Shown here one piece after another: positions 20,922 to 35,492 of a DNA stretch of 58,007 nt (its first letter is position 1; every line of letters begins with the position of its first letter). Origin of the DNA: an uncultured Bdellovibrionales bacterium (lineage in GTDB: Bacteria; Patescibacteriota; Minisyncoccia; Moranbacterales; UBA2206); assembly GCA_964387895.1 (NCBI GenBank), contig CAYLWX010000001.1, positions 983 to 58,989 on the forward strand, in the 5' to 3' direction. The notes beneath the pieces were generated by a model that was not told where the DNA came from, ran no database searches, and saw nothing but the letters and a program-made list of their open reading frames with translations. Made by a program: the position numbers and the translations under genes.

Positions 20922-20996
20922 AATTATTTGAGGGGGTATGTGGTGTTTTCTTCCGCTTCGCTCCAGAAAACGATTTATTTATAATTTTTTAAAAGC

Positions 20997-21002
20997 TATA
21001 AT
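20997..21002 (+). promoter_or_regulatory. -10 box TATAAT 6 nt upstream of the methyltransferase ATG
   Basis: TATAAT at 20997-21002, spacer CAAGAT, ATG at 21009. No SD. A second TATAAT lies at 20980-20985. Confidence 0.45.
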
Positions 21003-21008
21003 CAAGAT

Positions 21009-21755
21009 ATGTCGGATATAACAAAATTCATAAACAAAATAATCTGCGGGGATACGGTTGAAATAATGAAAAAAATGCCGGACGGATCGGTTGATTTAAT
21101 TGTGACTTCACCACCTTATAACCTTAAAAACTCTACTGGCAATGGTATGAAAGACGGCCGAGGCGGAAAATGGGCAAATGCCGCTTTGCAAAAGGGCTAC
21201 TCACATTACAACGATAATATGCCACACAAAGAATATGTTAAGTGGCAAAGAAATTGTCTCACGGAAATGATGAGATTGATTCCTGAAGATGGAGCAATTT
21301 TTTACAATCATAAATGGCGCGTTCAAGCTAATTTATTACAAGATCGCCAAGATATTGTGAGTGGGTTACCCGTCCGTCAAATTATTATTTGGAGACGTGC
21401 CGGTGGACTGAATTTTAATGCTGGTTATTTTTTGCCCACTTATGAAGTAATCTATTTAATTGCTAAACCAAAATTCAAACTTGCGCCGAAAGCAAACGCT
21501 TACGGCGACATTTGGGAAATACCACAAGAAATGAAAAACGGACATCCAGCACCTTTTCCTGTTAAACTCATTGACCGGATAATTTCATCAACGAACGCAA
21601 AAATTATTTTAGATCCATTCATGGGTTCTGGAACAACTGCTATATCAGCAATAAATTTTAATCGTAATTATATTGGGATTGATATTTCTCCGGATTATTG
21701 TGAGTCAGCAAAAAAAAGGATAAAACAACATCAATCGCAAGCTAAACTTTTATAA
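21009..21755 (+). CDS. beta-class DNA methyltransferase (N4-cytosine or N6-adenine), type II R-M
   Basis: Motif IV DLIVTSPPYNL is near the N-terminus and motif I ILDPFMGSGTT near the C-terminus, which is beta-class order. Partnering with a BcnI/MvaI-like nuclease suggests m4C. Confidence 0.9.
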   Translation: MSDITKFINKIICGDTVEIMKKMPDGSVDLIVTSPPYNLKNSTGNGMKDGRGGKWANAALQKGYSHYNDNMPHKEYVKWQRNCLTEMMRLIPEDGAIFYNHKWRVQANLLQDRQDIVSGLPVRQIIIWRRAGGLNFNAGYFLPTYEVIYLIAKPKFKLAPKANAYGDIWEIPQEMKNGHPAPFPVKLIDRIISSTNAKIILDPFMGSGTTAISAINFNRNYIGIDISPDYCESAKKRIKQHQSQAKLL

Positions 21756-21757
21756 CT

Positions 21758-22552
21758 ATGACAGATCAAATTATCTACACAAAACCGGCTCTAATCGAAA
21801 AGTTGAAAGAAATTTCTGCAATGAGATTTGTGCCAAACGCGCGAAAAGGAAATGCCGGAGGTATCGGCAACACTCTTGAAGATTTACTTGGAATTAAGGA
21901 AAACAACCTACCAATCCCAAACGCCGCCGAATGGGAATTGAAAGCTCAACGTTTGAATTCAACATCTCTCACGACACTTTTTCATATTGAGCCCTCGCCA
22001 CGAGCAATCCGCTTTGTACCGCAAGTTTTATTACCTTTTTACGGCTGGGCACACCAAGAAGATGGCAAAAAATATCCAAAAGGCGAAATGAGTTTCCGAC
22101 AAACTATTCACGGCAATTCATGCAGTGATCGTGGCTTTAAGGTTGTCATTGATCGTAAGGAGCGAAAAATTTTAATTTCGTTTGATTCAAAATGCGTAGA
22201 CAAAAGGCACAAAAAGTGGCTACAACAAGTTAAAAAGCATGTTGGCCTTAGTGAATTAAATCCACAACCATATTGGGGCTTTGATGATTTAGAGCATAAA
22301 GCCGGAACAAAACTACTCAATGCCTTTTACGTACAGGCAGAAGTAGAAATCAGGCGCAAAAAAGAATTTTATCACTATACAAAAGTAATGATGTTACAGA
22401 AGTTTAGTTTTGAAGGATTTTTAAAAGCATTGGGGGAAGGTAAAATTCTCGTGGATTTTGACGCACGCACTGGTCATAATCACGGAACAAAATTTAGAAT
22501 GAGGCAGGATTGTTTGCCTATGCTTTACGAAAAACAATCAATAATAATTTAA
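21758..22552 (+). CDS. type II restriction endonuclease, MvaI/BcnI-like
   Basis: Blocks GNTLEDLLGIKENNLPIPNAAEWELKAQR...SLTTLFHIEPSP and EFYHYTKVMML...VDFDARTG..HGTKFRM match my recollection of BcnI (GQILERQFGVQENN..GEFELKG..LTLFH; FHFTKAYML; RGPHLRI). It lies 2 nt downstream of the MTase. Confidence 0.7.
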   Translation: MTDQIIYTKPALIEKLKEISAMRFVPNARKGNAGGIGNTLEDLLGIKENNLPIPNAAEWELKAQRLNSTSLTTLFHIEPSPRAIRFVPQVLLPFYGWAHQEDGKKYPKGEMSFRQTIHGNSCSDRGFKVVIDRKERKILISFDSKCVDKRHKKWLQQVKKHVGLSELNPQPYWGFDDLEHKAGTKLLNAFYVQAEVEIRRKKEFYHYTKVMMLQKFSFEGFLKALGEGKILVDFDARTGHNHGTKFRMRQDCLPMLYEKQSIII

Positions 22553-22568
22553 TAATATTTAAAAACAT

Positions 22569-23597
22569 ATGAGCAAAATTGATCTAATTAAAAAAATCGA
22601 AGCAAAAAGAAATTCAAAAGTAATAACCTATTTAACAAGCGACCGGCCGGGTCCTCTTAACGCAAAAATTGCTGGCGACATTATACCAATAATTAGTCAA
22701 CAACTACGAAAAATTGGCAAGGTTGAAAATATTGATTTATTTATTTTCAGCCAAGGTGGCGATACTATGGTTCCATGGCGATTAGTTTCCATGATAAGAG
22801 AATACTGCACTAAATTTTCTGTTTTAATTCCTTACAAAGCACACAGCTCCGCAAGCATGATTTCTCTAGGTGCCGACGAAATTGTAATGACGGATTTATC
22901 AGAAATTTCACCGATTGACCCGTCAACTGCAAATATTTTTAATCCTAGCGACCCACAAAATCCTCAAAATAAAATTCCGATTTCAGTAGAGGATGTTATG
23001 GCTTATTTTGATTTAGTAAAAAATAAATTTGGAATTAAAAATGACGAGGATTTAACTAAAATATTTAATAAGTTTGTGGAATCAAATCCGCAGATACACC
23101 CGTTAGCGCTCGGGAACGTTAACCGTACCCACAATTTAATTAGAGTTCTCGCAAAAAGATTGCTTAAGAGCCACAATAGCCCTATAGCAGAAAATGTAAT
23201 AGAAAAAATCGTGGATAACTTAACAGAAAAACTTTATTCACATCAATATTACATAGGTAGAAAAGAGGCAAAAAATGATTTAAAAATTGACACTGTCGTT
23301 TTTGCGGATGACGAAACATCAAGATTATTAAGTGATCTGTATGAAGAATACCGAAAGGAAATGGGCCTAAATATAACAAGTTGGAGTCCTGAAGTAGAAT
23401 TAGGCACCGGAACCGCCCAGATTAAAAAAGACTATAAAATTGCTTACATTGAAAGCGTTGAACTATCAAACTATTTTCAGCTATCTATTGAATACAAAAA
23501 ACAACAGGTTAATATAACACAGCCAACACCACAAGGACCGATTCAAGTTCCACAAGAACAAATCGGATTTAGAATTGTTGATCAAGGCTGGAAATAA
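22569..23597 (+). CDS. SDH-family (serine dehydrogenase proteinase, ClpP/SppA fold) serine protease with an unassigned C-terminal half
   Basis: NIDLFIFSQGGDTMVPW...LIPYKAHSSASMISLGADEIVMTDLSEISPIDPS parallels the family blocks (hTpGG; AmSaGTliALaaDeIvM; LGPIDP). Residues from about 190 to 342 match nothing I recognise. Confidence 0.75.
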   Translation: MSKIDLIKKIEAKRNSKVITYLTSDRPGPLNAKIAGDIIPIISQQLRKIGKVENIDLFIFSQGGDTMVPWRLVSMIREYCTKFSVLIPYKAHSSASMISLGADEIVMTDLSEISPIDPSTANIFNPSDPQNPQNKIPISVEDVMAYFDLVKNKFGIKNDEDLTKIFNKFVESNPQIHPLALGNVNRTHNLIRVLAKRLLKSHNSPIAENVIEKIVDNLTEKLYSHQYYIGRKEAKNDLKIDTVVFADDETSRLLSDLYEEYRKEMGLNITSWSPEVELGTGTAQIKKDYKIAYIESVELSNYFQLSIEYKKQQVNITQPTPQGPIQVPQEQIGFRIVDQGWK

Positions 23598-23608
23598 CAG
23601 AAAGTTAT

Positions 23609-24210
23609 ATGGTTAATTTTTTAAACTCAGGTTTTTTCACAGGCTTAGCAACAATATTAACTGCGATTGTAGCAATTTTTTTGTATTACTGGGAGCAACG
23701 AAAAAAGAAACGAGACGCTGCAAAAATAATCATTCAGGAAATAAGAAGAGCCGAAGATTTAATCAGCGAATACAAAGAATGTGGCGGGTATAAATTTACA
23801 AAAAAAATAATTGCAACAAATAGCTGGGCGAAAATATTCATTATTTTGTTGGCGATTTAGCACAAGACGAGGTAGATAAAATAAGTACCTTGTATTCAAC
23901 TGGCGAATACCTTGATACCATAATTGCAAAAGTATCAGATCACGCTTTTGATGAACAGGTAAAATCATACGAAAGCGAAATTAAACAAATTGTTGCCGGA
24001 CTCCAAAATCCTATAACGAGCCAGCAGTCAACATCTAGCGGCGATCAATCGGGCGCTCAAGTAATCCCCAAAATTGTGCAAAGAGCAGTACCTGTAAAAA
24101 TTCAAATACCGCCGCCATGGAAAATATTATTAGACGAAATATCTTTTAATTACGAGCCGATTTATCATTCAAGTATTTGTGAAAAATTGAAAAAAATTGG
24201 CAAGATATAA
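23609..24210 (+). pseudogene. membrane-anchored hypothetical gene interrupted by a frameshift at an A-run
   Basis: ORF 23609-23860 (frame 2, N-terminal TM) and ORF 23890-24210 (frame 1) form one reading unit. Frame 1 is already open from 23824 and overlaps the end of frame 2. One extra A in GCGAAAATATT (about 23829-23834) would read ...ATNSWAKNIHYFVGDLAQDEVDKISTLYSTGEY... Confidence 0.6.
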
Positions 24211-24223
24211 AATTCCAATAAGG

Positions 24224-24268
24224 TGTCTTGGCTTCGGGGCATTCACCCCCAGCCCCTACGCCAAGACA
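24224..24268. repeat. GC-loop hairpin (GGGCATTCACCCC family)
   Basis: Stem TGTCTTGGC (24224-24232) / GCCAAGACA (24260-24268). The loop contains GGGGCATTCACCCCCAGCCCCT. It lies immediately inside the right IR. Confidence 0.65.
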
Positions 24269-24298
24269 AAAATAAAATTTGTTCATTACAGGAAAGTG
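24268..24298. repeat. right inverted repeat of the island
   Basis: AAAAATAAAATTTGTTCATTACAGGAAAGTG. It is followed by the short palindrome GTTCCG-ctaaga-CGGAAC. Confidence 0.85.
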
Positions 24299-24434
24299 GT
24301 TCCGCTAAGACGGAACAAATATAATATATGCCGATACGTTAAATAGAAAACTATGAAAACATTTCTCTTTCCTATTCAACCAGTCAATCGCCTTGAGTTT
24401 CAATATTCAAAATGATAGTATTAGTTTGAGATAA

Positions 24435-25215: not shown

Positions 25216-25290
25216 AATTTCCAATTCCCAAATCCCAATTTCCAATAAATGTCCAAAATTTTGGAAATTGGATATTGGAAATTGGAAATT
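25216..25290. repeat. long imperfect AT-rich hairpin built from GGAAATTGG units
   Basis: AATTTCCAATTCCCAAATCCCAATTTCCAA (25216-25245) pairs with TTGGAAATTGGATATTGGAAATTGGAAATT (25261-25290): 30-nt arms with 3 mismatches and a 15-nt loop. Confidence 0.75.
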
Positions 25291-25931: not shown

Positions 25932-26591
25932 ATGGAATTAACTATCAGCCCTATCATAAACTTCTTTATATCCAAAGGTGTTCCTTTTGAAACCGCGCTT
26001 CTGATTCTTATGCTGCCTATAATCGCCACCCTGATCACTTTCCTGCGGCAAGTGATTGGCATAAAGGCTTTTGGTATTTATACCCCCCTTATCGTCACAT
26101 TCGCGTTTCTTGCCACTAACGGCATTAAATACGGAATAGGCATATTTATCGCCGTTATCCTGACAGGCATGCTTATGCGATTCGCGTTAAAACCTTTCCG
26201 GCTCCTGTATCTTCCCAGAGTCGCCATCATGCTTTCAGCAGTCGCGCTTGTTATTCTTGCCATGCTGGTGCTTGGCGGAACCATAAAGAGAACCGGACTG
26301 GCCTCTGTTTCCATTTTTCCTATTTTAATTATGATAACCATCGTGGAAAAATTCATCGCGGTGCAAATTGAAAAAGGAAATAAAACCGCAGTCCTGCTCG
26401 CTCTGGAAACACTTGCTATTTCTGTATTGGGATATTACATCGCCAGTTGGAGCATACTCATACGGCTTCTCTCGGCTTATCCCTGGATTGTACTACTCAC
26501 AGTGCCAGTAAATATATTTTTGGGCAAATGGACCGGACTTAGAATACAGGAGTATTTGAGGTTCAGGGAAATAATGAAAAGAATTCAATAG
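25932..26591 (+). CDS. polytopic membrane protein, 7TM domain of the type usually fused to an inactive transglutaminase
   Basis: 219 aa with about 6-7 TM segments. The block FLRQVIGIKAFGIYTPLIV and the position directly upstream of an ATPgrasp_ST-type ligase fit the 7TM_transglut family as I recall it. Confidence 0.6.
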   Translation: MELTISPIINFFISKGVPFETALLILMLPIIATLITFLRQVIGIKAFGIYTPLIVTFAFLATNGIKYGIGIFIAVILTGMLMRFALKPFRLLYLPRVAIMLSAVALVILAMLVLGGTIKRTGLASVSIFPILIMITIVEKFIAVQIEKGNKTAVLLALETLAISVLGYYIASWSILIRLLSAYPWIVLLTVPVNIFLGKWTGLRIQEYLRFREIMKRIQ

Positions 26592-26604
26592 AGTTAACGC
26601 CCCT

Positions 26605-27999
26605 ATGCTTTCATACTTGAAAAAAAGCCATAAAATTCTAGGCATGAACTCAAGAAATCTTGAGTATATACGGGCGTATAACTTATTGAAAGCGAAAAGA
26701 TTCGCGGATGATAAGCTGCTTAGTAAAAAAATACTGAAGCAAAACGAGCTCCCCGTACCCGCGCTTATCGCGAAAATAAAAAATCGCGAGGAGTTGGATA
26801 AGTTTCGTTGGCAATCTCTTCCAAACAGCTTCGCCTTAAAACCTAACCGAGGGTTTGGAGGAGACGGAATTATAGTGGTGTACGGAAAGAAAAAGGGACG
26901 GGATGACGCCTGGATCAAAGCAGACCGCTCTCTTATCACTATAGACGATTTAAGAAATCATGTGCTTAACATACTGGACGGTTCTTTTTCTCTTTCCAAT
27001 ACTCCCGACATTGCCTTTTTCGAAGAACGATTAAGACTCCTGAAACTCTTTAAACCCTACACTTACAAGGGTATTCCTGACATTCGCGTGATTGTGTTCA
27101 ATAAAGTTCCTGTTATGGCCATGTTGCGCCTTCCTACGTATGAATCGGGAGGAAAAGCGAATGTTACCTTAGGCGCGCTGGGAGTGGGAATTGATATGGC
27201 TTCAGGCGTCACCACTACTGCCATCCAGGGGAAACATAAGATAGTGGAAAAGGTTCCTGGCACCCGCCTCATTTTAAGCGGAGTTAAGATTCCTTACTGG
27301 AAAGATATCCTCTCCCTGGCGGTGCGCGCCCAGGAAATTTCAGGATTAGGATATTTGGGAGCGGATATTGCCATCGACAAAGAGCGCGGCCCGGTCTTTT
27401 TTGAACTCAATGCCAGACCTGGTCTTTCCATCCAGATTGCCAACCTGGCCGGACTCAAGGAACGACTCGAGCGCGTGGCCGGATTGAAAATAAAGACTAT
27501 AGGAAAGGGCGTGCGAGTAGGCATGGATCTTTTTGGAGGAGAAATTGAAGAAGAAGTGGAAGATATCTCAGGAAAAAAAGTTATCAGCACGGTAGAAAAG
27601 GTTACGCTCACCGGAAAGAACGGCAACAAGGCCGATGTGGAAGCCAAAATTGATACGGGAGCGGGTTATACTTCCATTGACAGCAACCTTGCCAGACAAT
27701 TAGGGTTTTCTCACACTGTGGACGAGTTTGAAAGAATAAGTCCGGGATATGAAACCCTGAAAAGCCTCGGTGTTTCTGAAAGAAAAAATCTCTTCCAGGC
27801 CATTCCGGATCTCGCGGATACGGTTATTGTCCACTCATCGCATGGAACTACCTACCGACCCATGATTACTATTACTATTCTTATGGACAATCTTACTATT
27901 CCTGCTAAGGTTACAGTGGTAGATCGCTCTCATCTAAAATATCCGTTAATTATTGGAAAGCAAAATTTAAAAAAATTTCTCATTGACGCAAGTAAATAA
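26605..27999 (+). CDS. alpha-L-glutamate-ligase-like ATP-grasp enzyme (ATPgrasp_ST type) fused to a RimB-like retropepsin domain
   Basis: N-terminus ILGMNSRNLEYIRAYNLLKAKRFADDKLLSKKIL..ELPVP (family signature), then the ATP-grasp core (GADIAIDKERGPVFFELNARPGL). The C-terminal ~130 aa carry KIDTGAGYTSID (a D-T-G-A aspartic protease motif), as in the so-called ATP-dependent zinc protease / RimB domain. Confidence 0.8.
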   Translation: MLSYLKKSHKILGMNSRNLEYIRAYNLLKAKRFADDKLLSKKILKQNELPVPALIAKIKNREELDKFRWQSLPNSFALKPNRGFGGDGIIVVYGKKKGRDDAWIKADRSLITIDDLRNHVLNILDGSFSLSNTPDIAFFEERLRLLKLFKPYTYKGIPDIRVIVFNKVPVMAMLRLPTYESGGKANVTLGALGVGIDMASGVTTTAIQGKHKIVEKVPGTRLILSGVKIPYWKDILSLAVRAQEISGLGYLGADIAIDKERGPVFFELNARPGLSIQIANLAGLKERLERVAGLKIKTIGKGVRVGMDLFGGEIEEEVEDISGKKVISTVEKVTLTGKNGNKADVEAKIDTGAGYTSIDSNLARQLGFSHTVDEFERISPGYETLKSLGVSERKNLFQAIPDLADTVIVHSSHGTTYRPMITITILMDNLTIPAKVTVVDRSHLKYPLIIGKQNLKKFLIDASK

Positions 28000-28001
28000 C
28001 C

Positions 28002-28967
28002 ATGAAAAAAGTACTCATCCTTTTTGGCAGAAGCAACTGGGAAAAATCCGTTCCCTTTAGTAATAAAGAATACCAATACTCCTACGAATATTTTTATTCT
28101 CTCTGTAAGGAACAAGGCATCCAAATGTATAGAGCCTCCTATGAATGGTACAATTATGATAAACATATTTTTTCTCATGCCTGGATATTTGAAGGCAAGG
28201 GCGGGAAGTGGAAAAAAGTCTCTCAAATAACTCCCGACCTTATCTATGATAAAACAAAAGCTCGAATGGAGTTATATTATAAAAAGGAACTGATCCAAAA
28301 TCACTACCCTTTTATCAATGACCTCCATTTTACTCGAATTGTAAATGACAAGCTTATCACAAGTCTCATATTCAGCCTCTGGAGCAAAAAAAGCTGGATC
28401 GCAAACAACAAGGGAGAACTGTCAAAAATTTTACCCTATATCCCATCTGAAAAAGTTGTACTAAAATCAATTTTGGGAAGTGGCGGAGAAGATGTGCAAG
28501 TAAGAGATAAAAACACTATAGCCTCAATAGATCTTTTTAACACTCCGACTTTAGCACAGGAGTTTATTGATTCTTCAAGTGGAATTCCTGGAATCTGCAA
28601 TGGCATGCACGACTTAAGACTGGTCTGTGTTAATGAAAAAATCATCTATGCTTATATTCGAGAACCTAAAAAGGGAAGCTACCTGGCAAATTTAGCCCAG
28701 GGAGGAACACTCACCATCGTACCGAAAAACAAGTTGCCGATTACATTATTTCCTATCATGAACTATATCAATGAAATATTTACCACATGGAACCCTCGTG
28801 TCTATTCTATCGATTTTATGTTTGACCAGCATCATCACCCCTGGATCGTGGAACTTAACGGTATGCCAGGGCTTTATTTCACTCCAAAAGAAAAGCCTTA
28901 TATGATAGAAATGTACCAGGAACTTTTGGAAATGTTCAAGAAAAAATTGGAAATGTCCCATGCATAA
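28002..28967 (+). CDS. ATP-grasp ligase, RimK/YheC-YheD-like
   Basis: VVLKSILGSGGEDVQV, HDLRLVCVNEKIIYAYIREPKKGSYLANLAQGGTL and YSIDFMF...WIVELNGMPGL are the ATP-grasp phosphate-binding and Mg-binding blocks. Confidence 0.75.
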   Translation: MKKVLILFGRSNWEKSVPFSNKEYQYSYEYFYSLCKEQGIQMYRASYEWYNYDKHIFSHAWIFEGKGGKWKKVSQITPDLIYDKTKARMELYYKKELIQNHYPFINDLHFTRIVNDKLITSLIFSLWSKKSWIANNKGELSKILPYIPSEKVVLKSILGSGGEDVQVRDKNTIASIDLFNTPTLAQEFIDSSSGIPGICNGMHDLRLVCVNEKIIYAYIREPKKGSYLANLAQGGTLTIVPKNKLPITLFPIMNYINEIFTTWNPRVYSIDFMFDQHHHPWIVELNGMPGLYFTPKEKPYMIEMYQELLEMFKKKLEMSHA

Positions 28968-29919
28968 TATTTCCGCGCCCAAAAGAAAAATAGTCATGTA
29001 CTTTAAAAAAGATCGCTCCCCTCGGGATCCTTTTGCCGAATTTTCCCGCAAAGAAAAGATATATCATTTATTTTTTTCCGAAGGAACCAGGCAGGGACAT
29101 AAGATGTATCTGGCAAGCGGAGCAGCCAGCTATCAGGGCAATATGACGTTTTCCAATGCGTATCTTTATAATGGGCGCTCTTTCAATACTGAATCTTGCG
29201 TCATAGAAGCAGATGCGATATACGATCGTAGCGCTGGCCTCAACTTTCCTCCGGAAAATATTTCAAAAAAAACATTAAACTGCGCGCAATTCAAAAAGCT
29301 CTGTGACAACAAAAATCTTATGTACCAATTGCTTGGAAAGTACATGCCGAAAACATTTCCAATTAAAAATAAAGAGGATCTTCATCAAGCATTGCACTTT
29401 TTCCCTCCAGGCGATCTCGTGGTGCTCAAACCCTCTAATGGCTTAGGCGGAAAAGGAATTATTATCGATACTCCCTTAAAACTCAGGGAAGCATTGATAA
29501 AAGAAGGGGGAGAATATTCTTTGCAGCAATTTATCGATACTTCCCGCGGAATTCCCGGAATTACTCACGAGCGCCATGATTTACGAATAGCAATTGTGGA
29601 GGGCGAGATAGTATTTTCCCACGTTCGTATTCCGCCGCGAGGAAATTATTTGGCTAATGTGGCGCAAGGAGGGTCTCTCCGGGAAGTTTTATTAGAAAAT
29701 ATTCCCCCGTGCGTGATAGAAACAACGCGCCAGATACAATCCCTCATTGACTCCAATTTTCACTATCCGGTATATTCCATTGACTTTGGTATCATGGGAG
29801 ATAGGCCGTACATATTTGAAATCAATGATCGTATCGGGTTCCCCGCGGAAAATATGCACAATGCTCCGCGATTCATTGAAGCGCTTCTTCAGTCCCTGCT
29901 TTTACGTGCCAACGCATAG
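28960..29919 (+). CDS. ATP-grasp ligase, RimK/YheC-YheD-like (paralog of 28002-28967)
   Basis: VVLKPSNGLGGKGIII, HDLRIAIVEGEIVFSHVRIPPRGNYLANVAQGGSL and YSIDFGI..PYIFEINDRIGF. It overlaps the upstream gene by 8 nt. Confidence 0.75.
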   Translation: MHNISAPKRKIVMYFKKDRSPRDPFAEFSRKEKIYHLFFSEGTRQGHKMYLASGAASYQGNMTFSNAYLYNGRSFNTESCVIEADAIYDRSAGLNFPPENISKKTLNCAQFKKLCDNKNLMYQLLGKYMPKTFPIKNKEDLHQALHFFPPGDLVVLKPSNGLGGKGIIIDTPLKLREALIKEGGEYSLQQFIDTSRGIPGITHERHDLRIAIVEGEIVFSHVRIPPRGNYLANVAQGGSLREVLLENIPPCVIETTRQIQSLIDSNFHYPVYSIDFGIMGDRPYIFEINDRIGFPAENMHNAPRFIEALLQSLLLRANA

Positions 29920-29972: not shown

Positions 29973-32495
29973 ATGGGCCATACATTTATCTCCCCCACAC
30001 CATCTAAAAAACCTTCTTCCCTGGGAAGGTGGTTTAATATTTTGCTTAAAATAAGCATATTTTTGGGTATAGCCTCCATACTCTTCGTAGCGGGAGCTTT
30101 TGTATATTTAGCCAAGGATCTACCCAGCCCCGGCAAGATTAACAAGCGGTTTATCGCCGAATCAACCAAAATTTACGATCGCACCGGCACTCACTTACTC
30201 TATGACATTCATAGTGAAGAAAAAAGAACGATTATTCCTTTCAAGGACATGCCGGAGAGTATTCGCTACGCCACAATCGCTCTTGAGGATCAGGACTTTT
30301 ACTCCCACCGGGGAATAAAGTTCAGCTCTATTATCCGCGCGGCGTTTAAGGATGTGATAAAAGGCAGTGCCGCGCAGGGAGGCTCCACAATTACCCAGCA
30401 GCTTATAAAAAATTCCCTGCTTACCTCTGAACGCACGTTTACTCGAAAAATCAAGGAGGTTATTTTATCCATAGAACTGGAACGCAAGTTTTCCAAAGAC
30501 CAGATTCTGGAAATGTATCTAAATGAGATTCCCTACGGATCAAACGCCTACGGAATAGAGGCTGCCGCGCAAACTTTCTTTGGGCGCCACGCGTCCGAAC
30601 TCACCCTCGATGAAGCTGCTCTTCTTGCCGCGCTCCCCAAAGCTCCCACCTATTATTCCCCTTTTGGTTCTCATCCTGAAGAATTAAAAGGCAGGCAGGA
30701 ACATGCATTGCGCACCATGGCTTCTTTGGGATACATTTTACCGGAAGAAGCCGAAAAGGCGGCCGGCGTTAATATACTTGCCAAAATTTCCCCTACCCGG
30801 GAAAATATTTCCGCTCCTCATTTTGTCATGTATGTAAAAGAGTATTTAGAATCAAAATATGGAAGACAGGAAATAGAACAGGGGGGGCTTAGGGTATACA
30901 CCACGCTGGATTGGGAAAAACAACAGATCGCGGAGGAGATAGTAAGGGAAGGAGCGGAAAACAACGCAAAAAAATATGGCGCTTCCAACGCGGCCCTGGT
31001 CGCTATAGACCCGAAAACCGGACAGATTTTGTCTATGGTGGGTTCCAGAAATTATTTCGACAAATCTGTCGACGGACAAGTCAATGTGGCAATTCGCGAC
31101 CGCCAGCCGGGATCTTCTTTTAAGCCATACGTCTACCTTACCGCTTTTAAAAAAGGCTATACTCCTGAAACAATTTTATGGGATGTTGACACAAATTTCA
31201 GCACGGAAACCGGCAAGGAATATAATCCAAAAAATTATGATAACAAGAACAGGGGGCCGTTAAAAATAAAAGAGGCCCTGGCAATGTCGCTCAATGTTCC
31301 AGCCGTGAAGGCGCTCTACCTTGCCGGAGTGAAAAATTCTGTTGATACGGCGAGACTTATGGGGATTACTACCCTGAAAAACCCTGAAAAATTCGGCCTC
31401 TCCCTTGTGCTGGGCGGCGGCGAGGTAAAGCTCCTTGACCACGTAAGCGCGTTTGGAACGCTCGCTACAGGAGGAGTGCATCATAAGAAGAACGCTATTT
31501 TAAAAGTACTCGATGGAGCGGGAAATGTGCTGGAAGAATATAAGGACAATCCGGGAGAAAGAGTTATAGAAGAAAAATATGTGGCTATGCTTGACCATAT
31601 TCTCTCTACAAACTCCTACCGGGCTCCCGTGTTTGGCGCCAATAATCCTTTGAGATTCGACCATCGTCCGGTAGCGGCAAAAACAGGAACTACCAATGAG
31701 TGGCGGGATGGGTGGACCCTGGGCTACATTCCTACTTTAGCGGTGGGTGTATGGGCCGGCAACAATAATAATTTCCCCATGGCGCAGGGAGCGGACGGCG
31801 TCTATGTGGCCGCGCCTATCTGGAGAAAGTTCATGGATGAGGCAACAAAAAATTACGCTATAGAACAATTCCCTGATTATGAAAAAGAGGAAACAGGAAA
31901 AGCTGTCCTGGACGGAAACTTAAAGCTTCCAGATGAAATAAAGGTATGCAAAATTCCCGGAAAAAAAGATTCTTACTGTCTCGCCAGCAGCGCGTGTCCG
32001 GAAAACCAGGTAAAAAAGAAAAAGTTTTCACTGAATCATGACATCTTGTGGTATGTAAAAAAAGATGATCCCCGGGGAGATTACCCGGAAAATCCACAGA
32101 ATGACTCTCAATTCAAAAATTGGGAAAAAGCAGTACAAAAATGGATGGAAAAGGAAGACTATGAAGGAAAAGAGCCTCCCGCAGAAGAATGTAGGGAAAG
32201 TGATTTTGAGAATTTCCTGCCTTCCATTAACATCACCGCCCCCGACGATGGCGACACAATTACTTCTTCAAGTATAAATATATCTGTCAGTTTAAACGCG
32301 CCTTACGGCATAGATGAAGCGTCTCTTTATATTGATGACACTAAAGTGGTTTCTAAAAAAGAATCTTCTTTTGACTATACCTACTCGGTTCCAGAAAGCA
32401 AAAAATCATCGGAAATCACCATAGTCGCCATGGTAAAAGACAAAAATAGAAATTCGGACTCTTCTACTGTAAAAGTAAGGACTGATATTCTTTAA
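29973..32495 (+). CDS. ponA: class A penicillin-binding protein (GT51 glycosyltransferase plus transpeptidase) with a C-terminal extension
   Basis: GT51 motifs EDQDFYSHRGI, GGSTITQQL and RKIKE. Transpeptidase motifs SSFKP (SxxK) and KTGTT. N-terminal TM anchor. Confidence 0.95.
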   Translation: MGHTFISPTPSKKPSSLGRWFNILLKISIFLGIASILFVAGAFVYLAKDLPSPGKINKRFIAESTKIYDRTGTHLLYDIHSEEKRTIIPFKDMPESIRYATIALEDQDFYSHRGIKFSSIIRAAFKDVIKGSAAQGGSTITQQLIKNSLLTSERTFTRKIKEVILSIELERKFSKDQILEMYLNEIPYGSNAYGIEAAAQTFFGRHASELTLDEAALLAALPKAPTYYSPFGSHPEELKGRQEHALRTMASLGYILPEEAEKAAGVNILAKISPTRENISAPHFVMYVKEYLESKYGRQEIEQGGLRVYTTLDWEKQQIAEEIVREGAENNAKKYGASNAALVAIDPKTGQILSMVGSRNYFDKSVDGQVNVAIRDRQPGSSFKPYVYLTAFKKGYTPETILWDVDTNFSTETGKEYNPKNYDNKNRGPLKIKEALAMSLNVPAVKALYLAGVKNSVDTARLMGITTLKNPEKFGLSLVLGGGEVKLLDHVSAFGTLATGGVHHKKNAILKVLDGAGNVLEEYKDNPGERVIEEKYVAMLDHILSTNSYRAPVFGANNPLRFDHRPVAAKTGTTNEWRDGWTLGYIPTLAVGVWAGNNNNFPMAQGADGVYVAAPIWRKFMDEATKNYAIEQFPDYEKEETGKAVLDGNLKLPDEIKVCKIPGKKDSYCLASSACPENQVKKKKFSLNHDILWYVKKDDPRGDYPENPQNDSQFKNWEKAVQKWMEKEDYEGKEPPAEECRESDFENFLPSINITAPDDGDTITSSSINISVSLNAPYGIDEASLYIDDTKVVSKKESSFDYTYSVPESKKSSEITIVAMVKDKNRNSDSSTVKVRTDIL

Positions 32496-32807: not shown

Positions 32808-32929
32808 AAATCCGAGCACGAAATTCTAAACAATATCAAAATTAAAATACTCAAAATTCAAAACGTTTCGAATTTTATATTTTTGTTATTTGGATTTATT
32901 TAGGATTTAGAATTTCGTGCTTGGGATTT
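32808..32929. repeat. long imperfect inverted repeat (MITE-like hairpin)
   Basis: AAATCCGAGCACGAAATTCTAAA (32808-32830) pairs with TTTAGAATTTCGTGCTTGGGATTT (32906-32929). GGATTTA-type units surround the right arm. Confidence 0.7.
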
Positions 32930-32950
32930 AGGATTTATTTTGGAAATTGC

Positions 32951-32978
32951 CCGCCCAAGGCGGATGCGCCTTGGGCGG
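32951..32978 (-). terminator. GC hairpin downstream of gdhA
   Basis: CCGCCCAAGGCG-gatg-CGCCTTGGGCGG, a perfect 12-bp stem 28 nt after the gdhA stop. It is flanked by TTGGAAATTG / TTGGAAATTGGAAATT units, as at 25261-25290. Confidence 0.6.
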
Positions 32979-33005
32979 AGGATTTGGAAATTGGAAATTT
33001 ATGTC

Positions 33006-34259
33006 TTAGCTTCTCCCCCTGTTCTTCATCGCCTCCGCTATGCGGGAAACTGCCACAAGATAGGCCGCGTTGCGAAGGTTGGTATGATACTTTTCTTTTT
33101 GCTTCCACACCGCTTCAAACGCCTCCTGCATGAGAATTTTCAATTTTTCCAACACTTCCGCTTCACTCCAATAATAGCCGTACGCGTTTTGCACTTGTTC
33201 AAAGTAACTCACCGCTACTCCGCCCGCGTTAGCCAGAATGTCCGGAATAACTTCCACTCCTTTTTGCGCCAATATTTCATCCGCTTCAGGCGTAAGAGGA
33301 CCATTTGCCAGCTCCAGAATGAGCTTAGCCTTAATACTGGAAGCGTTTTCCTTAGTGATTGAATTTTCCAGGGCTGCCGGAACTAAAATATCCATATCCT
33401 GGGAAAAAAACGCTTCCACGCTTAACGTTTGGGCGCCAGAAAATCCCGTCACTGATCCTGTTTTTTCTTTATGCTGTTCAAGTTCTTCCGGATTGATTCC
33501 GATATAATTGCACACCGTTCCACTGGAATCACTCACCATGACTATCACATATCCAGCCTGGTGAAGTATCTTCGCGATATTTCTGCCCGCGTTGCCAAAT
33601 CCCTGGATCGCCACTCGTATTCCGTCAGTTTTCTTCATACTCATCGCCGACTCTAACACGTAATACCCTCCCTGGGCCGTGGAATAATCCCTGGCTTTCG
33701 ATCCTCCTATTCCCAATGGCTTTCCCGTAATCACTCCCGGCACATGTCTTCCTATGATTTTTTCATATTCATCCAGCATCCATCCCATAATTCTCGCGTC
33801 AGTACTCACATCCGGAGCAGGAATATCCAGGTCCGGTCCTATAAATTTCCAAATAGCGCGGACATATCCGCGAGAGAGCGCTTCCAGCTCTCGCGGAGAA
33901 AGTTTTTTAGGATCTACGACCACTCCTCCTTTTCCGCCGCCGAGAGGAATATTCACTACCGCTGTTTTAAACGCCATCCAGGCAGACAAAACTTTTACTT
34001 CATCATAGGAAACTTCCGGATGAAATCGTATCCCCCCCTTAAAGGGCCCTCTCGCGTCATTAAATTGCGATCTAAACCCCTGAAACATCTTTATAGATCC
34101 ATCATCCATTATTACAGGAATGTTCACCTCCAAAACTCTTACAGGGGCCTGTAATTGAATGTAGCTACTTTCATTTAATTGTATCATCTCCCTGACTTTC
34201 GCAAGTTGAGAAAGATAATTTTCAAACGCGGTAGCCGGCCGTGTGATATGTGGTCCCAT
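33006..34259 (-). CDS. gdhA: NAD(P)-dependent glutamate dehydrogenase
   Basis: PLGGGKGGVVVDP active-site Lys motif, the GFGNAG dinucleotide fold, 417 aa. Confidence 0.95.
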   Translation of the reverse strand: MGPHITRPATAFENYLSQLAKVREMIQLNESSYIQLQAPVRVLEVNIPVIMDDGSIKMFQGFRSQFNDARGPFKGGIRFHPEVSYDEVKVLSAWMAFKTAVVNIPLGGGKGGVVVDPKKLSPRELEALSRGYVRAIWKFIGPDLDIPAPDVSTDARIMGWMLDEYEKIIGRHVPGVITGKPLGIGGSKARDYSTAQGGYYVLESAMSMKKTDGIRVAIQGFGNAGRNIAKILHQAGYVIVMVSDSSGTVCNYIGINPEELEQHKEKTGSVTGFSGAQTLSVEAFFSQDMDILVPAALENSITKENASSIKAKLILELANGPLTPEADEILAQKGVEVIPDILANAGGVAVSYFEQVQNAYGYYWSEAEVLEKLKILMQEAFEAVWKQKEKYHTNLRNAAYLVAVSRIAEAMKNRGRS

Positions 34260-34334: not shown

Positions 34335-35492
34335 TTAATTTTTAATTGGCATGACAATATAGAGATAATCCCCTAAAACTTCTCCTGTTTCTTCGTTGAT
34401 TTCCCGCAATGCTACAGGAGTAGATTCACTGTTCACCAATAACGCTACTTTTGAAGTGGCAATATTATTAATCCCGTCCAGGAGATATTTTGAATTAAAT
34501 ACCACTTTTTGCGAAGGTCCCGTTATATCCGCTTCCATTTCTGATACATTTTCTCCTATTTCAGAACTGTGTACCTGAATAATAACTTTCTTCTTTTCAC
34601 TATGTATCTCAAGACTAATCTCACTAGTCTTGCCGGTAGTAAAAAATCCAGCCATTTTCACCGCTCCCTGAATAAAACTTTTCTCTATCACTGCCCTTGT
34701 TTTAAATTCCTGGGGTACAATATGCTTATACTCAGGATATTTCCCATTAATAAGTCTGGAAATAATAGTAGTTCCTGGAATTTCAAAAAATATTTGTCCT
34801 TCTTCAATCGCTACTTTTACTTTCCCTTCTTCATCTCCTGAAATTATCCGGTTTAATTCCATTAAAGTAACTGCCGGAATAATAATATTTTCTGTTTTTT
34901 CTCTTAATGCGGTATATCTCTCTTCATTTACCTCATCTTTTCCTAAATTAATTCGGTTTTCAGAAAGCCGAAAGCTGTCTGTAGAGGCAAAAAATATCTC
35001 CCGTTCTTTTAATACCACATTTATCCCCGTGAGTTCCTGTCTGGATTCATGAAATGCCACGGAAACCATTATTTTAGTAATAATTCTTTTTAGATCATTT
35101 GCGGATAACTGAAATTGAAAATCAGTACTTTTATGTGGAATTAAGGGAAAATCAGACGCAGAAAGCCCTTTAATCACTGCTTTAATGGATCCACTTTTTA
35201 TTTTTAAATTTTGATCTATTACCTCCAAAGTAATATTTTCCCCCACAGGAAGGTTGTTTATTACATTACTAATTAATTTCGCCGGAATAGTAATTTTACC
35301 TTCTTTTTCCACTTTTGCGCCTATATGCGCTATTACTCCCATTTCAAGATTAGTCGCGGATAAAGTTAAGCCTTTTTTATCCGCTTCAAAAAGAATATTA
35401 TTTAAAATCGGCAAGGTAGTTTGCTTGGACACTACTTTTTCTGAATTAAATATTGCTCGCTTAAAATTTTCCTGAGTACAGATAAGATGCAT
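34335..35492 (-). CDS. dnaN: DNA polymerase III beta sliding clamp
   Basis: 385 aa. It lies downstream of dnaA and has the typical start MHLICTQENFKRAI...LPILNNILFE. Confidence 0.95.
   Translation of the reverse strand: MHLICTQENFKRAIFNSEKVVSKQTTLPILNNILFEADKKGLTLSATNLEMGVIAHIGAKVEKEGKITIPAKLISNVINNLPVGENITLEVIDQNLKIKSGSIKAVIKGLSASDFPLIPHKSTDFQFQLSANDLKRIITKIMVSVAFHESRQELTGINVVLKEREIFFASTDSFRLSENRINLGKDEVNEERYTALREKTENIIIPAVTLMELNRIISGDEEGKVKVAIEEGQIFFEIPGTTIISRLINGKYPEYKHIVPQEFKTRAVIEKSFIQGAVKMAGFFTTGKTSEISLEIHSEKKKVIIQVHSSEIGENVSEMEADITGPSQKVVFNSKYLLDGINNIATSKVALLVNSESTPVALREINEETGEVLGDYLYIVMPIKN

What the first reader, a model, noticed from the sequence alone, without database searches (positions are those of the whole stretch)
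25932..29919. Four-gene amidoligase cluster: 7TM protein, ATPgrasp_ST ligase fused to a retropepsin-like domain, and two further ATP-grasp ligases
The genes are tightly packed (gaps of 13 and 2 nt, then an 8-nt overlap). Gene 2 begins with the ILGMNxRNxxYIxxYN...DDKLxxK signature of alpha-L-glutamate-ligase-like enzymes and ends with a D-T-G-A aspartic protease domain of the RimB type. Gene 1 is the 7TM partner usually seen with that ligase. Genes 3 and 4 are paralogous RimK/YheC-YheD-like ATP-grasp enzymes with intact ATP and Mg blocks. Three peptide-bond-forming ligases, a protease domain and a membrane component suggest synthesis or tailing of a peptide, poly-amino-acid or cell-wall side chain whose substrate is unknown. 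The core ligase-7TM-protease association has been noted in comparative genomics but, to my knowledge, has never been characterised. The cluster sits directly upstream of the class A PBP, which raises a possible cell-envelope link. I see no precursor-peptide ORF.
Basis: partly seen in the sequence, partly recalled or inferred. Interest (0 to 1): 0.7.

Follow-up and report, generated by a model that had tools for sequence, protein, structure and literature searches.

The report
CPR polyglutamate-type ligase–protease gene cluster
An uncultured Moranbacteria (candidate phyla radiation) genome carries a compact version of the recently described Rlo/Rim [quoted passage not shown] system, with the protease fused to the ligase and two extra ligases from a cassette that varies between species; this is a new variant of a known but biochemically unsolved system, not an unprecedented one.

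Summary
Four tightly packed + strand genes encode a 7TM_transglut-family membrane protein, an ATPgrasp_ST (RloC-like) ligase fused to a DTGA retropepsin (RimB/RloA-like), and two further intact ATP-grasp ligases.

The claim that the ligase–7TM–protease association was never characterised is out of date. The rloABC operon of P. aeruginosa (mBio 2025) and a RimB–RimK hybrid (JBC 2025) have been described, although what the ligase and the 7TM protein make is still unknown.

What is new here is a CPR-wide variant:
- The protease is fused to the C-terminus of the ligase and is cytoplasmic.
- The two domains are joined by an invariant, predicted-disordered Glu-rich linker.
- The 7TM protein lacks the transglutaminase domain.
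- A hypervariable cassette follows the core (33 families, 46 combinations in 66 Moranbacteria loci). It holds ATP-grasp and Mur-type ligases, MATCAP peptidases and sugar-modifying enzymes. Genes 3 and 4 are one unique combination.

Across diverse lineages the 7TM gene directly precedes the fusion in 63/65 loci, and accessory ATP-grasps lie within 5 kb downstream in 55/70. PBP1A is within 8 kb in only 12/41 and tracks an origin-proximal synteny block, so a cell-wall link is not supported by context.

Most likely function: membrane-docked synthesis, trimming and lineage-specific tailoring of an acidic (poly-Glu-type) peptide.

The parts
25932..26591 (+). g1: 7-TM membrane protein of the 7TM_transglut/RloB family, TM module only (no transglutaminase-like or PKD ectodomain)
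   Evidence: PF14402 E 2e-30; NCBIfam RloB model positions 313-507 only. Seven hydrophobic segments with N-out/C-in topology by the positive-inside rule. Residues conserved in 76 Moranbacteria and at least 5 of 6 distant homologues (R39 K45 R96 R204 E207 R210 F211 and others) lie on cytoplasmic loops and the C-terminal tail. AF2 model pLDDT 74, with no significant PDB neighbour.
26605..27999 (+). g2: fusion protein, RloC-type ATP-grasp ligase + linker + RimB/RloA-type retropepsin
   Evidence: Orthologues are 63-83% identical across Moranbacteria; 407 GTDB species representatives encode a relative.
26626..27483 (+). g2 ligase domain (res 8-293), ATPgrasp_ST / alpha-L-glutamate-ligase-like
   Evidence: PF14397 E 9.5e-66; TIGR02291 E 2e-82. 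AF2 pLDDT 80-95. Nearest folds are ArgX/LysX, RimK, the CphA1 G domain and Ddl.
27529..27573 (+). Invariant Glu-rich linker motif LFGGEIEEEVEDISG (res 309-323) within the disordered linker (res 294-326)
   Evidence: F310 G311 G312 E313 E315 E316 E319 S322 G323 are invariant in 28 orthologues. F310 is invariant and the acidic motif is common in fused homologues down to 36% identity. The motif is absent from stand-alone ligases of about 300 aa. AF2 pLDDT is 26-45.
27583..27996 (+). g2 retropepsin domain (res 327-464) with K348-I-D350-T-G-A353, R418-P419, R441, G451
   Evidence: PF05618 E 1.2e-8; NCBIfam RloA E 1.2e-7. Direct alignments to PDB 9g58 (E 1.3e-5), 9g59 and 2pma share the AK-DTGA, RP-I and (D/N)R..YPLL-G motifs. 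No Cys and no signal peptide. pLDDT 80-93.
28002..28967 (+). g3: accessory ATP-grasp ligase, family F0 (the commonest accessory family, 31 of 66 Moranbacteria loci)
   Evidence: RimK E 3e-10, TTL and YheCD weak. Catalytic motifs K155, QEFID186, HDLR203, R220..N230..GG, D271, E284-L-N286 are conserved in 30 family members. 64-68% identical to orthologues in L001 and L005. GC 0.369 against 0.43-0.45 in neighbouring genes.
28960..29919 (+). g4: accessory ATP-grasp ligase, family F3 (11 of 66 loci; elsewhere usually preceded by the RimK-like family F4)
   Evidence: GSH-S_ATP E 5e-7. Motifs K157, QQFID189, HDLR206, R223..N233..GG, D275, E287-I-N289 are conserved in 11 members. An F4-F3 pair also follows the core in a distant lineage without PBP1A (L157, L165, L169).
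29973..32495 (+). Context only: class A PBP (PBP1A); conserved neighbour in Moranbacteria but not part of the system
   Evidence: TIGR02074 528 bits. Adjacency in 12/41 diverse loci, linked to the YebC-RuvC...DciA-DnaN-DnaA synteny block.

Best explanation
The cluster is a Patescibacteria version of the Rlo/Rim-type acidic-peptide system: a membrane-docked, ATP-dependent, template-free synthesis-and-trimming machine for a poly-/oligo-glutamate-type peptide, with species-specific tailoring. The proposed steps are as follows. (1) The N-terminal RloC-type ATP-grasp domain of g2 ligates L-Glu (or a similar acidic residue) onto a carboxylate acceptor in the cytoplasm. This is inferred from family membership and fold neighbours. 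(2) The C-terminal retropepsin of the same polypeptide acts as a homodimer in the cytoplasm. It binds the acidic chain through K348, R418 and R441 and cleaves it with D350, so it limits chain length or releases product. It probably also stimulates ligase turnover, as RimB does for RimK. The residues are shown; the activity is inferred. (3) g1, a 7-TM protein with N-out/C-in topology, docks the ligase through its conserved, largely basic cytoplasmic face and passes or anchors the product at the membrane. The association is shown by near-universal adjacency and by a natural 7TM-ligase fusion; the export role is inferred. (4) g3 and g4 are two active accessory ATP-grasp ligases drawn from a hypervariable cassette. 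They extend or decorate the product in a lineage-specific way (inferred). (5) The adjacency to PBP1A is inherited origin-proximal synteny.
For: The genetics and biochemistry of the homologous systems are published. RloA cleaves stretches of 8 or more Glu using K46/R114/R137, and rloB/rloC deletions suppress the rloA1-3 defects (PMC12239564). RimB trims poly-Glu and stimulates poly-alpha-L-Glu synthesis by RimK about 4-fold, and the RimBK hybrid is proteolytically active (PMC11957791). The same K-x-DTGA, RP and R motifs are present and invariant here, and the domain has no Cys or signal peptide, like cytosolic RimB. The fold neighbours of the ligase are ArgX/LysX, RimK and the CphA1 G domain, all of which extend acidic tails or poly-amino-acid chains. 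The 7TM gene directly precedes the fusion in 63/65 diverse loci, and P0255 is a natural 7TM+ATPgrasp_ST fusion. The conserved 7TM residues are cytoplasmic. Accessory ATP-grasps lie within 5 kb downstream in 55/70 diverse loci. P0152 fuses the core to a second ATP-grasp domain, and other proteins fuse it to a MATCAP peptidase. The catalytic motifs of g3 and g4 are intact.
Against: No RloC-type (ATPgrasp_ST) enzyme has a demonstrated product, so poly-Glu synthesis is an analogy. g2 scores below the TIGR02291 equivalog cut-off (276.7 against 314.2 bits). In P. aeruginosa the protease is periplasmic, whereas here it is cytoplasmic, so the order of export and trimming must differ. The 7TM model resembles no solved transporter (best Foldseek E = 1.0), so the export role is unsupported by structure. 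Cassettes in relatives also hold GT4 glycosyltransferases, YdjC and GNAT enzymes, which hints at a sugar-containing product rather than plain poly-Glu. No acceptor was identified.
Confidence: 0.5

Rival explanations
1. Reversible C-terminal tailing of a specific protein, as in RimK-RpsF or the tubulin TTL/MATCAP cycle. The ligases would add Glu or other residues to the C-terminus or acidic tail of a target protein (possibly a membrane or surface protein, the 7TM partner, or g2's own Glu-rich linker), and the retropepsin would remove them.
For: The closest folds (ArgX/LysX, RimK) act on acidic C-terminal tails of proteins. RimB/RimK act on RpsF. Relatives fuse or pair the ligase with MATCAP-type carboxypeptidases, and some accessory ligases have weak TTL hits. 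The linker is invariant, disordered and acidic.
Against: The near-obligate 7TM partner is not explained by a cytosolic protein-modification cycle. No encoded acidic-tailed candidate exists in the window, and the P. aeruginosa study found no encoded poly-Glu substrates. The number and type of accessory ligases vary widely between close relatives, which is unusual for modification of one conserved protein.
Confidence: 0.2
2. Cell-wall precursor modification. The ATP-grasp (and, in relatives, Mur-type) ligases would add amino acids to the peptidoglycan stem peptide or build cross-bridges, acting together with the adjacent PBP1A.
For: PBP1A lies immediately downstream in nearly all Moranbacteria loci and in two other lineages. 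The rlo mutants of P. aeruginosa show beta-lactam, cell-shape and hypo-osmotic phenotypes. The cassettes include Ddl-like and Mur-ligase-like families and GT4 enzymes.
Against: PBP1A is within 8 kb in only 12/41 diverse loci and tracks the YebC-RuvC/DciA-DnaN synteny block, while accessory ligases persist in 23/29 loci without it. The Mur-like proteins match the cyanophycin synthetase M domain (E 8e-54) far better than MurC-F. The retropepsin keeps the poly-Glu-binding residues.
Confidence: 0.1
3. A cytoplasmic storage or osmolyte polymer (cyanophycin- or poly-Glu-like) that is never exported. The 7TM protein would be a sensor or regulator of synthesis rather than a conduit.
For: Relatives carry cyanophycin-synthetase G-domain-like (E 1e-50) and M-domain-like (E 8e-54) accessory genes (a fused form occurs in L109). 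Glutamate is an osmolyte, and Rlo is tied to osmotic stress. The protease is cytoplasmic.
Against: This window lacks the CphA-like genes. The 7TM partner carries extracytoplasmic transglutaminase-like or PKD domains in other lineages, which points to an outward-facing role. High turnover of cassette content is more typical of surface structures.
Confidence: 0.08
4. Fortuitous adjacency of unrelated genes.
For: None beyond the generally conserved synteny of small CPR genomes.
Against: The 7TM gene is directly upstream in 63/65 loci and accessory ATP-grasps lie within 5 kb downstream in 55/70 loci, across lineages sharing only 33-51% identity and with different flanks. Natural gene fusions also link 7TM-ligase, ligase-retropepsin, ligase-MATCAP and ligase-second ATP-grasp.
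Confidence: 0.02

Closest known systems
rloABC operon of Pseudomonas aeruginosa (Lormand et al., mBio 2025, PMC12239564)
   Same: The three component families are the same: an RloC-type ATP-grasp (PF14397/TIGR02291), an RloB-type 7TM protein (PF14402) and an RloA-type retropepsin with DTGA and the K/R/R acidic-substrate residues. They are encoded together.
   Different: Here the protease is fused to the C-terminus of the ligase, has no signal peptide or disulfide cysteines and is therefore cytoplasmic. The 7TM protein lacks the periplasmic inactive transglutaminase domain. One to five extra ligases, peptidases or sugar enzymes follow. The host is a CPR bacterium rather than a Gammaproteobacterium (the paper reports 96% of RloB hits in Proteobacteria).
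RimK/RimB and the RimBK hybrid (Little et al., JBC 2025, PMC11957791)
   Same: A cytosolic retropepsin-like endopeptidase is paired or fused with a Glu-ligating ATP-grasp enzyme. The protease trims poly-Glu and stimulates poly-alpha-L-Glu synthesis.
   Different: RimBK has the protease at the N-terminus and a true RimK ligase. Here the order is reversed and the ligase is ATPgrasp_ST (TIGR00768 48.7 bits against a 143.4 cut-off). The Rim systems have no 7TM partner. The RpsF target is not established here.
Cyanophycin synthetase CphA1 (ATP-grasp G domain + Mur-ligase-like M domain)
   Same: It is a template-free poly-amino-acid synthesis by ATP-grasp plus Mur-type ligases. Accessory genes in relatives match its G and M domains (E 1e-50 and 8e-54).
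   Different: The window itself has no CphA-like gene (g2 scores 18.6 bits against an 850 cut-off). There is no N domain, and the modules are separate genes attached to the 7TM-ligase-protease core.
Tubulin tyrosine ligase / TTLL polyglutamylases with MATCAP or CCP peptidases (eukaryotes)
   Same: The logic is an ATP-grasp ligase that adds residues to an acidic tail, paired with a dedicated peptidase that removes them. MATCAP-family (PF08014) domains are fused to, or encoded next to, the ligase in CPR relatives.
   Different: There is no MATCAP gene in this window. TTL similarity of g3 is weak (E 4e-4), and no protein target is known.
LysX/ArgX-LysW amino-group carrier system
   Same: It gives the best structural match to the g2 ligase domain (3vpb, E 1.6e-8). 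These enzymes ligate to the C-terminal Glu of an acidic tail.
   Different: Identity is only 16-17%. There is no LysW-like carrier gene and no lysine or arginine biosynthesis genes nearby.

Membership tests
rloABC system | RloC-type ATP-grasp ligase (PF14397 / TIGR02291) | tested here: met
   PF14397 scores 222 bits (cut-off 31.4). TIGR02291 gives E 2e-82 but 276.7 bits, below the 314.2 equivalog cut-off, so this is family-level rather than equivalog-level membership.
rloABC system | RloB: 7TM module fused to a periplasmic inactive transglutaminase domain | tested here: not met
   g1 is 219 aa and matches only the 7TM part (PF14402 positions 58-247; RloB model positions 313-507, 75.6 bits against a cut-off of 900). 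There is no ectodomain.
rloABC system | RloA: separately encoded, secreted retropepsin with a signal peptide and conserved disulfide | tested here: not met
   The domain is fused after residue 326 of the ligase, and the whole protein has no N-terminal hydrophobic signal and no Cys (criterion).
rloABC system | Catalytic DTG(A) and the basic residues that coordinate poly-Glu (K46, R114, R137 of RloA) | tested here: met
   K348, D350-T-G-A353, R418 and R441 are invariant or nearly so in 28 orthologues. They align to AK-DTGA, RP-I and DR in the solved homologues 9g58, 9g59 and 2pma. Equivalence to the RloA_Pa numbering is by motif and spacing.
rloABC system | Osmotic, beta-lactam, biofilm and cell-shape phenotypes, with rloB/rloC epistatic to rloA | not testable with these tools
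   This requires genetics, and the organism is uncultured.
RimK/RimB (RimBK hybrid) | RimK-family alpha-L-glutamate ligase (TIGR00768) | tested here: not met
   g2 scores 48.7 bits, g3 47.6 and g4 30.5, against a cut-off of 143.4.
RimK/RimB (RimBK hybrid) | Protease domain N-terminal to the ligase | tested here: not met
   The order here is ligase then protease (criterion).
RimK/RimB (RimBK hybrid) | Cytosolic retropepsin-like aspartic endopeptidase (PF05618) | tested here: met
   PF05618 scores 35.3 bits (cut-off 27). There is no signal peptide and no Cys.
RimK/RimB (RimBK hybrid) | Polyglutamylation of ribosomal protein S6 (RpsF) | not testable with these tools
   rpsF is not in the window, and biochemistry would be required.
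ATP-grasp superfamily (g3, g4) | ATP-binding Lys and Gly-rich loop, hinge, catalytic Arg, and Mg-binding D...E-x-N | tested here: met
   All motifs are present and conserved within the families. Pfam RimK and GSH-S_ATP hits are above their cut-offs.
Cyanophycin synthetase | G (ATP-grasp) plus M (Mur-like) domains scoring as CphA (TIGR02068) | tested here: not met
   g2 scores 18.6 bits against a cut-off of 850, and g3 and g4 give no hit. Only relatives carry G-like and M-like accessory genes.
Graspetide / RiPP ATP-grasp clusters | Adjacent precursor-peptide gene | tested here: not met
   Intergenic gaps are 13 nt, 2 nt and -8 nt, and there is no small conserved ORF or acidic-tailed ORF.
Known anti-phage defence systems | Match to a PADLOC model | tested here: not met
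   None of g1-g4 hits any model at E <= 1e-3.

The most novel reading that the evidence does not exclude
The CPR locus would be a modular, template-free 'peptide O-antigen'-like assembly line. The conserved 7TM-ligase-protease core would self-prime on (or autoprocess at) its invariant disordered Glu-rich linker. A rapidly exchanging cassette of stand-alone ATP-grasp and Mur-type ligases, peptidases and sugar enzymes would then build a lineage-specific acidic (glyco)peptide polymer, which the 7TM protein delivers to the cell surface of these episymbiotic bacteria. This would be a new class of variable surface polymer and a new membrane translocation fold.
Probability: 0.15. Interest if true: 0.8.

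Novelty: new variant of a known kind. Interest (0 to 1): 0.55.

Why it matters
The Rlo system affects antibiotic tolerance, biofilm formation and cell shape in P. aeruginosa, yet nobody knows what RloC makes or what RloB does. The CPR version is a stripped-down natural experiment: the protease is fused to the ligase, the 7TM module has no ectodomain, and natural 7TM-ligase fusions exist. It should therefore be easier to reconstitute, and it argues that the 7TM module and the ligase work as one unit at the cytoplasmic face of the membrane. CPR bacteria have very small genomes and little biosynthetic capacity, yet at least 407 species representatives keep this core, and many invest 1-5 further genes in a highly variable ligase cassette. 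That suggests an important product, possibly surface-exposed, in organisms whose envelope biology and host attachment are almost unknown. Independent fusions of Glu-type ligases to retropepsins (in both domain orders) and to MATCAP peptidases also generalise a 'ligase plus dedicated trimming peptidase' design principle shared with eukaryotic tubulin tail modification.

Tried and rejected
- Promoter and terminator scan of 23.5-33.5 kb: counts did not exceed shuffled controls, so no operon boundaries could be assigned.
- Foldseek search of the 7TM model against the PDB: no significant match (best E = 1.0, RnfA/RnfE, TM 0.37-0.42), so there is no functional transfer.
- Search for an acceptor or precursor: no ORF of 40 aa or more in the window has an acidic C-terminal tail or a run of 4 or more Glu/Asp.
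- PADLOC: no defence-system match for g1-g4 or for two neighbouring ORFs.
- The hypothesis that the acidic linker is simply the cis cleavage site of the retropepsin: only partly supported. The acidic linker goes with an intact DTG in 27 representatives. It is also present in 9 with a degenerate protease and absent in 21 with an intact one, and the association is phylogenetically confounded. AF2 gives no docked pose, only disorder.
- The TupA-like ATP-grasp CfmP of Klebsiella (PMC13419641) was checked as a possible relative: it is a different family (PF14305) and not relevant.
- Iyer et al. 2009 (PMC3268129), the original comparative-genomics description, could not be read.
- Literature searches for MATCAP/DUF1704 with ATP-grasp in bacteria, or for this system in Patescibacteria, found nothing.
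- I ran no further search on g3 or g4, because the locus surveys already showed that their families travel with the core.

Full report
**Observation.** The gaps are 13 nt and 2 nt, followed by an 8-nt overlap.

Profile searches support every domain call:
- g1 matches PF14402 7TM_transglut (E 2e-30), but only the membrane part. It matches only the C-terminal 7TM region of NCBIfam's RloB model.
- g2 matches PF14397 ATPgrasp_ST (E 9.5e-66, res 17-291) and TIGR02291 'alpha-L-glutamate ligase-like' (E 2e-82, 276.7 bits, below the 314.2 equivalog cut-off).
- g2 also matches PF05618 (RimB-like/Zn_protease, E 1.2e-8) and the RloA retropepsin models over res 341-460.
- g3 matches RimK (E 3e-10), and g4 matches the glutathione-synthetase ATP-grasp domain (E 5e-7).

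g3 and g4 are 31% identical to each other. Both keep every ATP-grasp catalytic block, and those blocks are conserved in their own families. A class A PBP follows. RuvC and YebC precede the cluster.

**Organism and conservation.** g2 has more than 5,600 homologues in the word-indexed protein search. The 120 best are 67-83% identical full-length fusions, and the named ones come from Candidatus Moranbacteria, Parcubacteria or Patescibacteria.

A scan of GTDB species representatives found 407 that encode a relative, and the best 80 are all Moranbacteria. In those loci YebC-RuvC-7TM-fusion is essentially invariant.

An exhaustive HMMER search of 1.84 billion cluster representatives gave 413 clusters at E <= 1e-30. 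These include full fusions down to 38% identity and stand-alone ligases of about 300 aa.

**What was already known.** NCBIfam's RloA and RloB models led to Lormand et al. 2025 (PMC12239564). [quoted passage not shown]
- RloA cleaves stretches of 8 or more Glu, using K46, R114 and R137 around D48.
- Loss of all three RloA paralogues causes hypo-osmotic lethality and defects in beta-lactam tolerance, biofilm formation and cell shape.
- Deleting rloB or rloC suppresses those defects.

Little et al. 2025 (PMC11957791) showed that the cytosolic homologue RimB trims polyglutamylated RpsF. RimB also stimulates RimK's ATPase about four-fold and is needed for efficient poly-alpha-L-Glu synthesis (chains up to 28-36 residues). 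A natural RimB-RimK hybrid (protease N-terminal) is proteolytically active and is present in 12% of rim-containing accessions.

The product of the RloC-type ligase and the role of the 7TM protein remain unknown.

**Anatomy of the fusion protein.** The AF2 model (mean pLDDT 77) has a confident ATP-grasp domain (res ~30-290, pLDDT 80-95) and a confident retropepsin domain (res 328-460, pLDDT 80-93). A linker (res 293-326) joins them at pLDDT 26-45.

The nearest folds to the ligase are ArgX/LysX, RimK, the cyanophycin synthetase G domain, Ddl and PsnB, at 13-20% identity. No ATPgrasp_ST member has been solved.

The retropepsin domain aligns directly to PDB 9g58 (E 1.3e-5), 9g59 and 2pma. It shares AK-DTGA, RP-I and (D/N)R..YPLL-G with them. 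K348, D350-T-G-A353, R418-P419, R441 and G451 are invariant or nearly so in 28 orthologues. Their spacing matches that of RloA's K46, D48, R114 and R137.

The protein has no cysteine at all and no signal peptide. That matches cytosolic RimB rather than periplasmic RloA, whose orthologues keep a disulfide.

**The linker.** Although predicted to be disordered, the segment L309-F-G-G-E-I-E-E-E-V-E-D-I-S-G323 is almost invariant in Moranbacteria. F310 is invariant, and the acidic LFGGE-EEE-E motif is frequent in fused homologues down to 36% identity, including those that carry a MATCAP domain. Stand-alone RloC-like ligases end before it.

Across 150 representatives the counts are:

| Linker | Intact DTG | Degenerate or absent retropepsin |
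|---|---|---|
| Acidic | 27 | 9 |
| Non-acidic | 21 | 53 |

A further 41 representatives have neither linker nor retropepsin. The association is real but phylogenetically confounded.

A conserved linear motif of this kind next to a poly-Glu-specific protease and a Glu-type ligase is a candidate autoprocessing site, pseudo-substrate, primer or docking element. I cannot discriminate between these possibilities.

**The 7TM partner.** g1 has seven hydrophobic segments. The positive-inside rule gives an N-out/C-in topology (about 14 K+R on the cytoplasmic side against about 5 outside). Homologues agree with this topology:
- Extracytoplasmic domains sit at the N-terminus: transglutaminase-like in RloB and PKD in L089 and L090.
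- In P0255 the ligase is fused to the C-terminus.

Residues conserved in 76 Moranbacteria and at least 5 of 6 distant homologues include R39, K45, R96, F141, G149, L203, R204, E207, R210 and F211. They lie on cytoplasmic loops 1, 3 and 5 and on the C-terminal GLRxxEYxRFR tail. This is a mostly basic face suited to docking the ligase or handling an acidic product.

The AF2 model (pLDDT 74) has no significant neighbour in the PDB (best E = 1.0). The fold therefore gives no functional clue.

**Genes 3 and 4 belong to a hypervariable cassette.** In 66 Moranbacteria loci where both flanks were present, the space between the fusion gene and PBP1A is 1.0-6.0 kb. It holds 1-5 genes, all on the same strand. 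The 174 proteins fall into 33 families at 38% identity or more, arranged in 46 different combinations.

By Pfam and NCBIfam the families are:
- many distinct ATP-grasp ligases (RimK-like, GshB-like, Ddl-like);
- a cyanophycin-synthetase G-domain-like family (E 1e-50);
- Mur-type ligases that match the cyanophycin synthetase M domain (E 8e-54);
- MATCAP-type metallopeptidases and DUF3541 proteins;
- GT4 glycosyltransferases, GNAT acetyltransferases and YdjC-like deacetylases;
- three families with no Pfam match.

g3 belongs to the commonest family (F0, 31 loci). g4 belongs to F3 (11 loci), which elsewhere usually follows the RimK-like family F4. The F0-F3 combination in this window was seen nowhere else. 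g3 is also more AT-rich (GC 0.369) than its neighbours (0.43-0.45).

**Do the accessory genes go with the core or with PBP1A?** I fetched six distant contexts by exact look-up and 80 diverse metagenome loci with an alignment of distant fusions (33-51% identity). I annotated them with HMMs built from the families above. The results:

| Feature | Loci |
|---|---|
| 7TM gene directly upstream of the fusion | 63/65 |
| Accessory ATP-grasp directly downstream | 48/70 |
| Accessory ATP-grasp within 5 kb | 55/70 |
| PBP1A within 8 kb downstream | 12/41 |

PBP1A co-occurs with RuvC upstream. Among the 28 loci with both flanks long, 8 have both genes, 16 have neither and 4 are mixed. Accessory ligases are present in 23/29 loci that lack PBP1A.

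An F4-F3 (g4-like) pair follows the core in a distant lineage without PBP1A (L157, L165, L169). A recurrent module of 7TM, fusion and three ATP-grasps with a MATCAP gene on the opposite strand occurs in another lineage.

Natural fusions reinforce the links:
- the core plus a second ATP-grasp domain (P0152);
- the core plus MATCAP (proteins of about 800 aa, in which the retropepsin has lost DTG and the Arg residues);
- the core plus YdjC (P0123).

The accessory enzymes therefore belong to the ligase system. The PBP1A adjacency is part of an origin-proximal synteny block (YebC-RuvC ... PBP1A-DciA-DnaN-DnaA).

**Mechanism.** The best-supported reading is a membrane-docked system for synthesising and trimming an acidic peptide.
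1. The RloC-type domain ligates Glu-type residues in the cytoplasm.
2. The fused retropepsin dimer binds and cleaves the acidic chain and probably stimulates turnover, as RimB does for RimK.
3. The 7TM protein holds the enzyme at the membrane and handles the product.
4. g3 and g4 tailor the product in a species-specific way.

What is shown: the domain identities, intact catalytic and substrate-binding residues, cytoplasmic location of the protease, topology and conservation pattern of the 7TM protein, near-universal 7TM-ligase coupling, and cassette variability. What is inferred: the chemical nature of the product, export, and the roles of g3 and g4.

The main rivals are:
- reversible C-terminal tailing of a protein (supported by the ArgX/LysX/RimK fold neighbours and the MATCAP/TTL parallels);
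- peptidoglycan precursor modification (weakened by the context statistics, and by the Mur-like genes being CphA-like);
- a non-exported storage or osmolyte polymer.

No PADLOC defence model matches, and no precursor peptide or acidic-tailed ORF is present.

**Novelty and verdict.** The component families and the idea of a ligase-retropepsin fusion are known. No paper in the searchable library describes the following:
- the CPR-wide architecture: an ATPgrasp_ST ligase N-terminal to a cytosolic retropepsin, with an ectodomain-less 7TM partner;
- the invariant disordered acidic linker;
- the alternative MATCAP fusions;
- the hypervariable accessory cassette.

I rate this a new variant of a known kind, of moderate interest. 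It offers a minimal, reconstitutable form of a clinically relevant but biochemically unsolved system, and it points to a variable peptide-based product in bacteria whose envelope biology is largely unexplored.

Noticed in passing
window 20232-24300: A low-GC stretch (0.35-0.385) is inserted between the LTD/PKD surface protein and YebC relative to L001, L003 and L005. It holds an unknown 198-aa ORF, an N4/N6 DNA methyltransferase (21009-21755), an MvaI/BcnI-family restriction endonuclease (21758-22552), an SDH-type ClpP-like serine protease (22569-23597) and small ORFs. It looks like a type II R-M island; the 198-aa ORF and the protease gave no PADLOC hit.
   Followed up: partly
window 25216-25290 (also 3468 and 32984): The YebC-RuvC intergenic region holds an inverted repeat with 30-nt arms (87% complementary), built from TTGGAAATTGG units. 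The 12-mer occurs 7 times in the window against 1.2 expected. Its function is unknown; it could be a terminator, an operator or a REP-like element.
   Followed up: partly
window 32812-32990: Two further inverted repeats (52-nt arms at 73% complementarity, and GC-rich 24-nt arms at 79%) lie in the intergenic region between the DciA-like ORF and glutamate dehydrogenase.
   Followed up: no
window 33006-34259 (-): A Glu/Leu/Phe/Val dehydrogenase (probably glutamate dehydrogenase, PF00208 E 2.6e-74) lies two genes downstream of a putative glutamate-ligase cluster. It is not conserved at this position, since L003 has a pyridine-nucleotide oxidoreductase there.
   Followed up: partly
window 34335-37152 (-) and GC-skew profile: DnaN (34335-35492) and a probable DnaA (35773-37152, assigned by position and by relatives) lie close to the cumulative GC-skew minimum at about 34-36 kb. 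The cluster therefore lies close to the replication origin.
   Followed up: partly
L090 3474-5876; P0128, P0139, P0143 and about 50 other representatives: A large class of proteins of about 800 aa combines ATPgrasp_ST, a degenerate retropepsin (DTG and Arg residues lost) and a MATCAP (PF08014) metallopeptidase. Stand-alone MATCAP genes also occur in the cassettes. This is a bacterial ligase/MATCAP pairing that parallels the tubulin tyrosination cycle, and I found no literature on it.
   Followed up: partly
L087 9001-11801: An archaeal-looking contig (PTH2, TruD, intein/LAGLIDADG) encodes a 7TM_transglut+ATPgrasp_ST fusion (576 aa) followed by a separate Transglut_core protein (357 aa). The same components are partitioned differently here.
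   Followed up: no
L089 6418-8001; L090 1870-3420; L095, L102, L128, L147, L152: In several CPR lineages the 7TM partner is about 505-545 aa. Pfam shows an N-terminal PKD domain in L089 and L090, where Proteobacteria have the inactive transglutaminase domain.
   Followed up: partly
L109 (853-aa ORF); L113, L116, L118 and others (ORFs of about 565 aa): Some cassettes contain a single gene joining the CphA G-like and Mur/M-like modules, giving a cyanophycin-synthetase-like protein without the N domain. Others contain enlarged G-like proteins of about 565 aa.
   Followed up: no
L007, L017-L019, L021, L022 and other GTDB records: Many MAG records whose fusion gene and synteny are typical of Moranbacteria are titled 'uncultured Bdellovibrionales bacterium' (binchicken/SRP co-assemblies). 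The taxonomic label looks wrong.
   Followed up: no
L089 9407-9883: In Kerfeldbacteria the fused retropepsin has a degenerate motif (DTGL, with R441 replaced by D) and a degenerate linker. A separate RimB-like gene of 158 aa follows immediately, which may be compensation for loss of the fused protease.
   Followed up: partly
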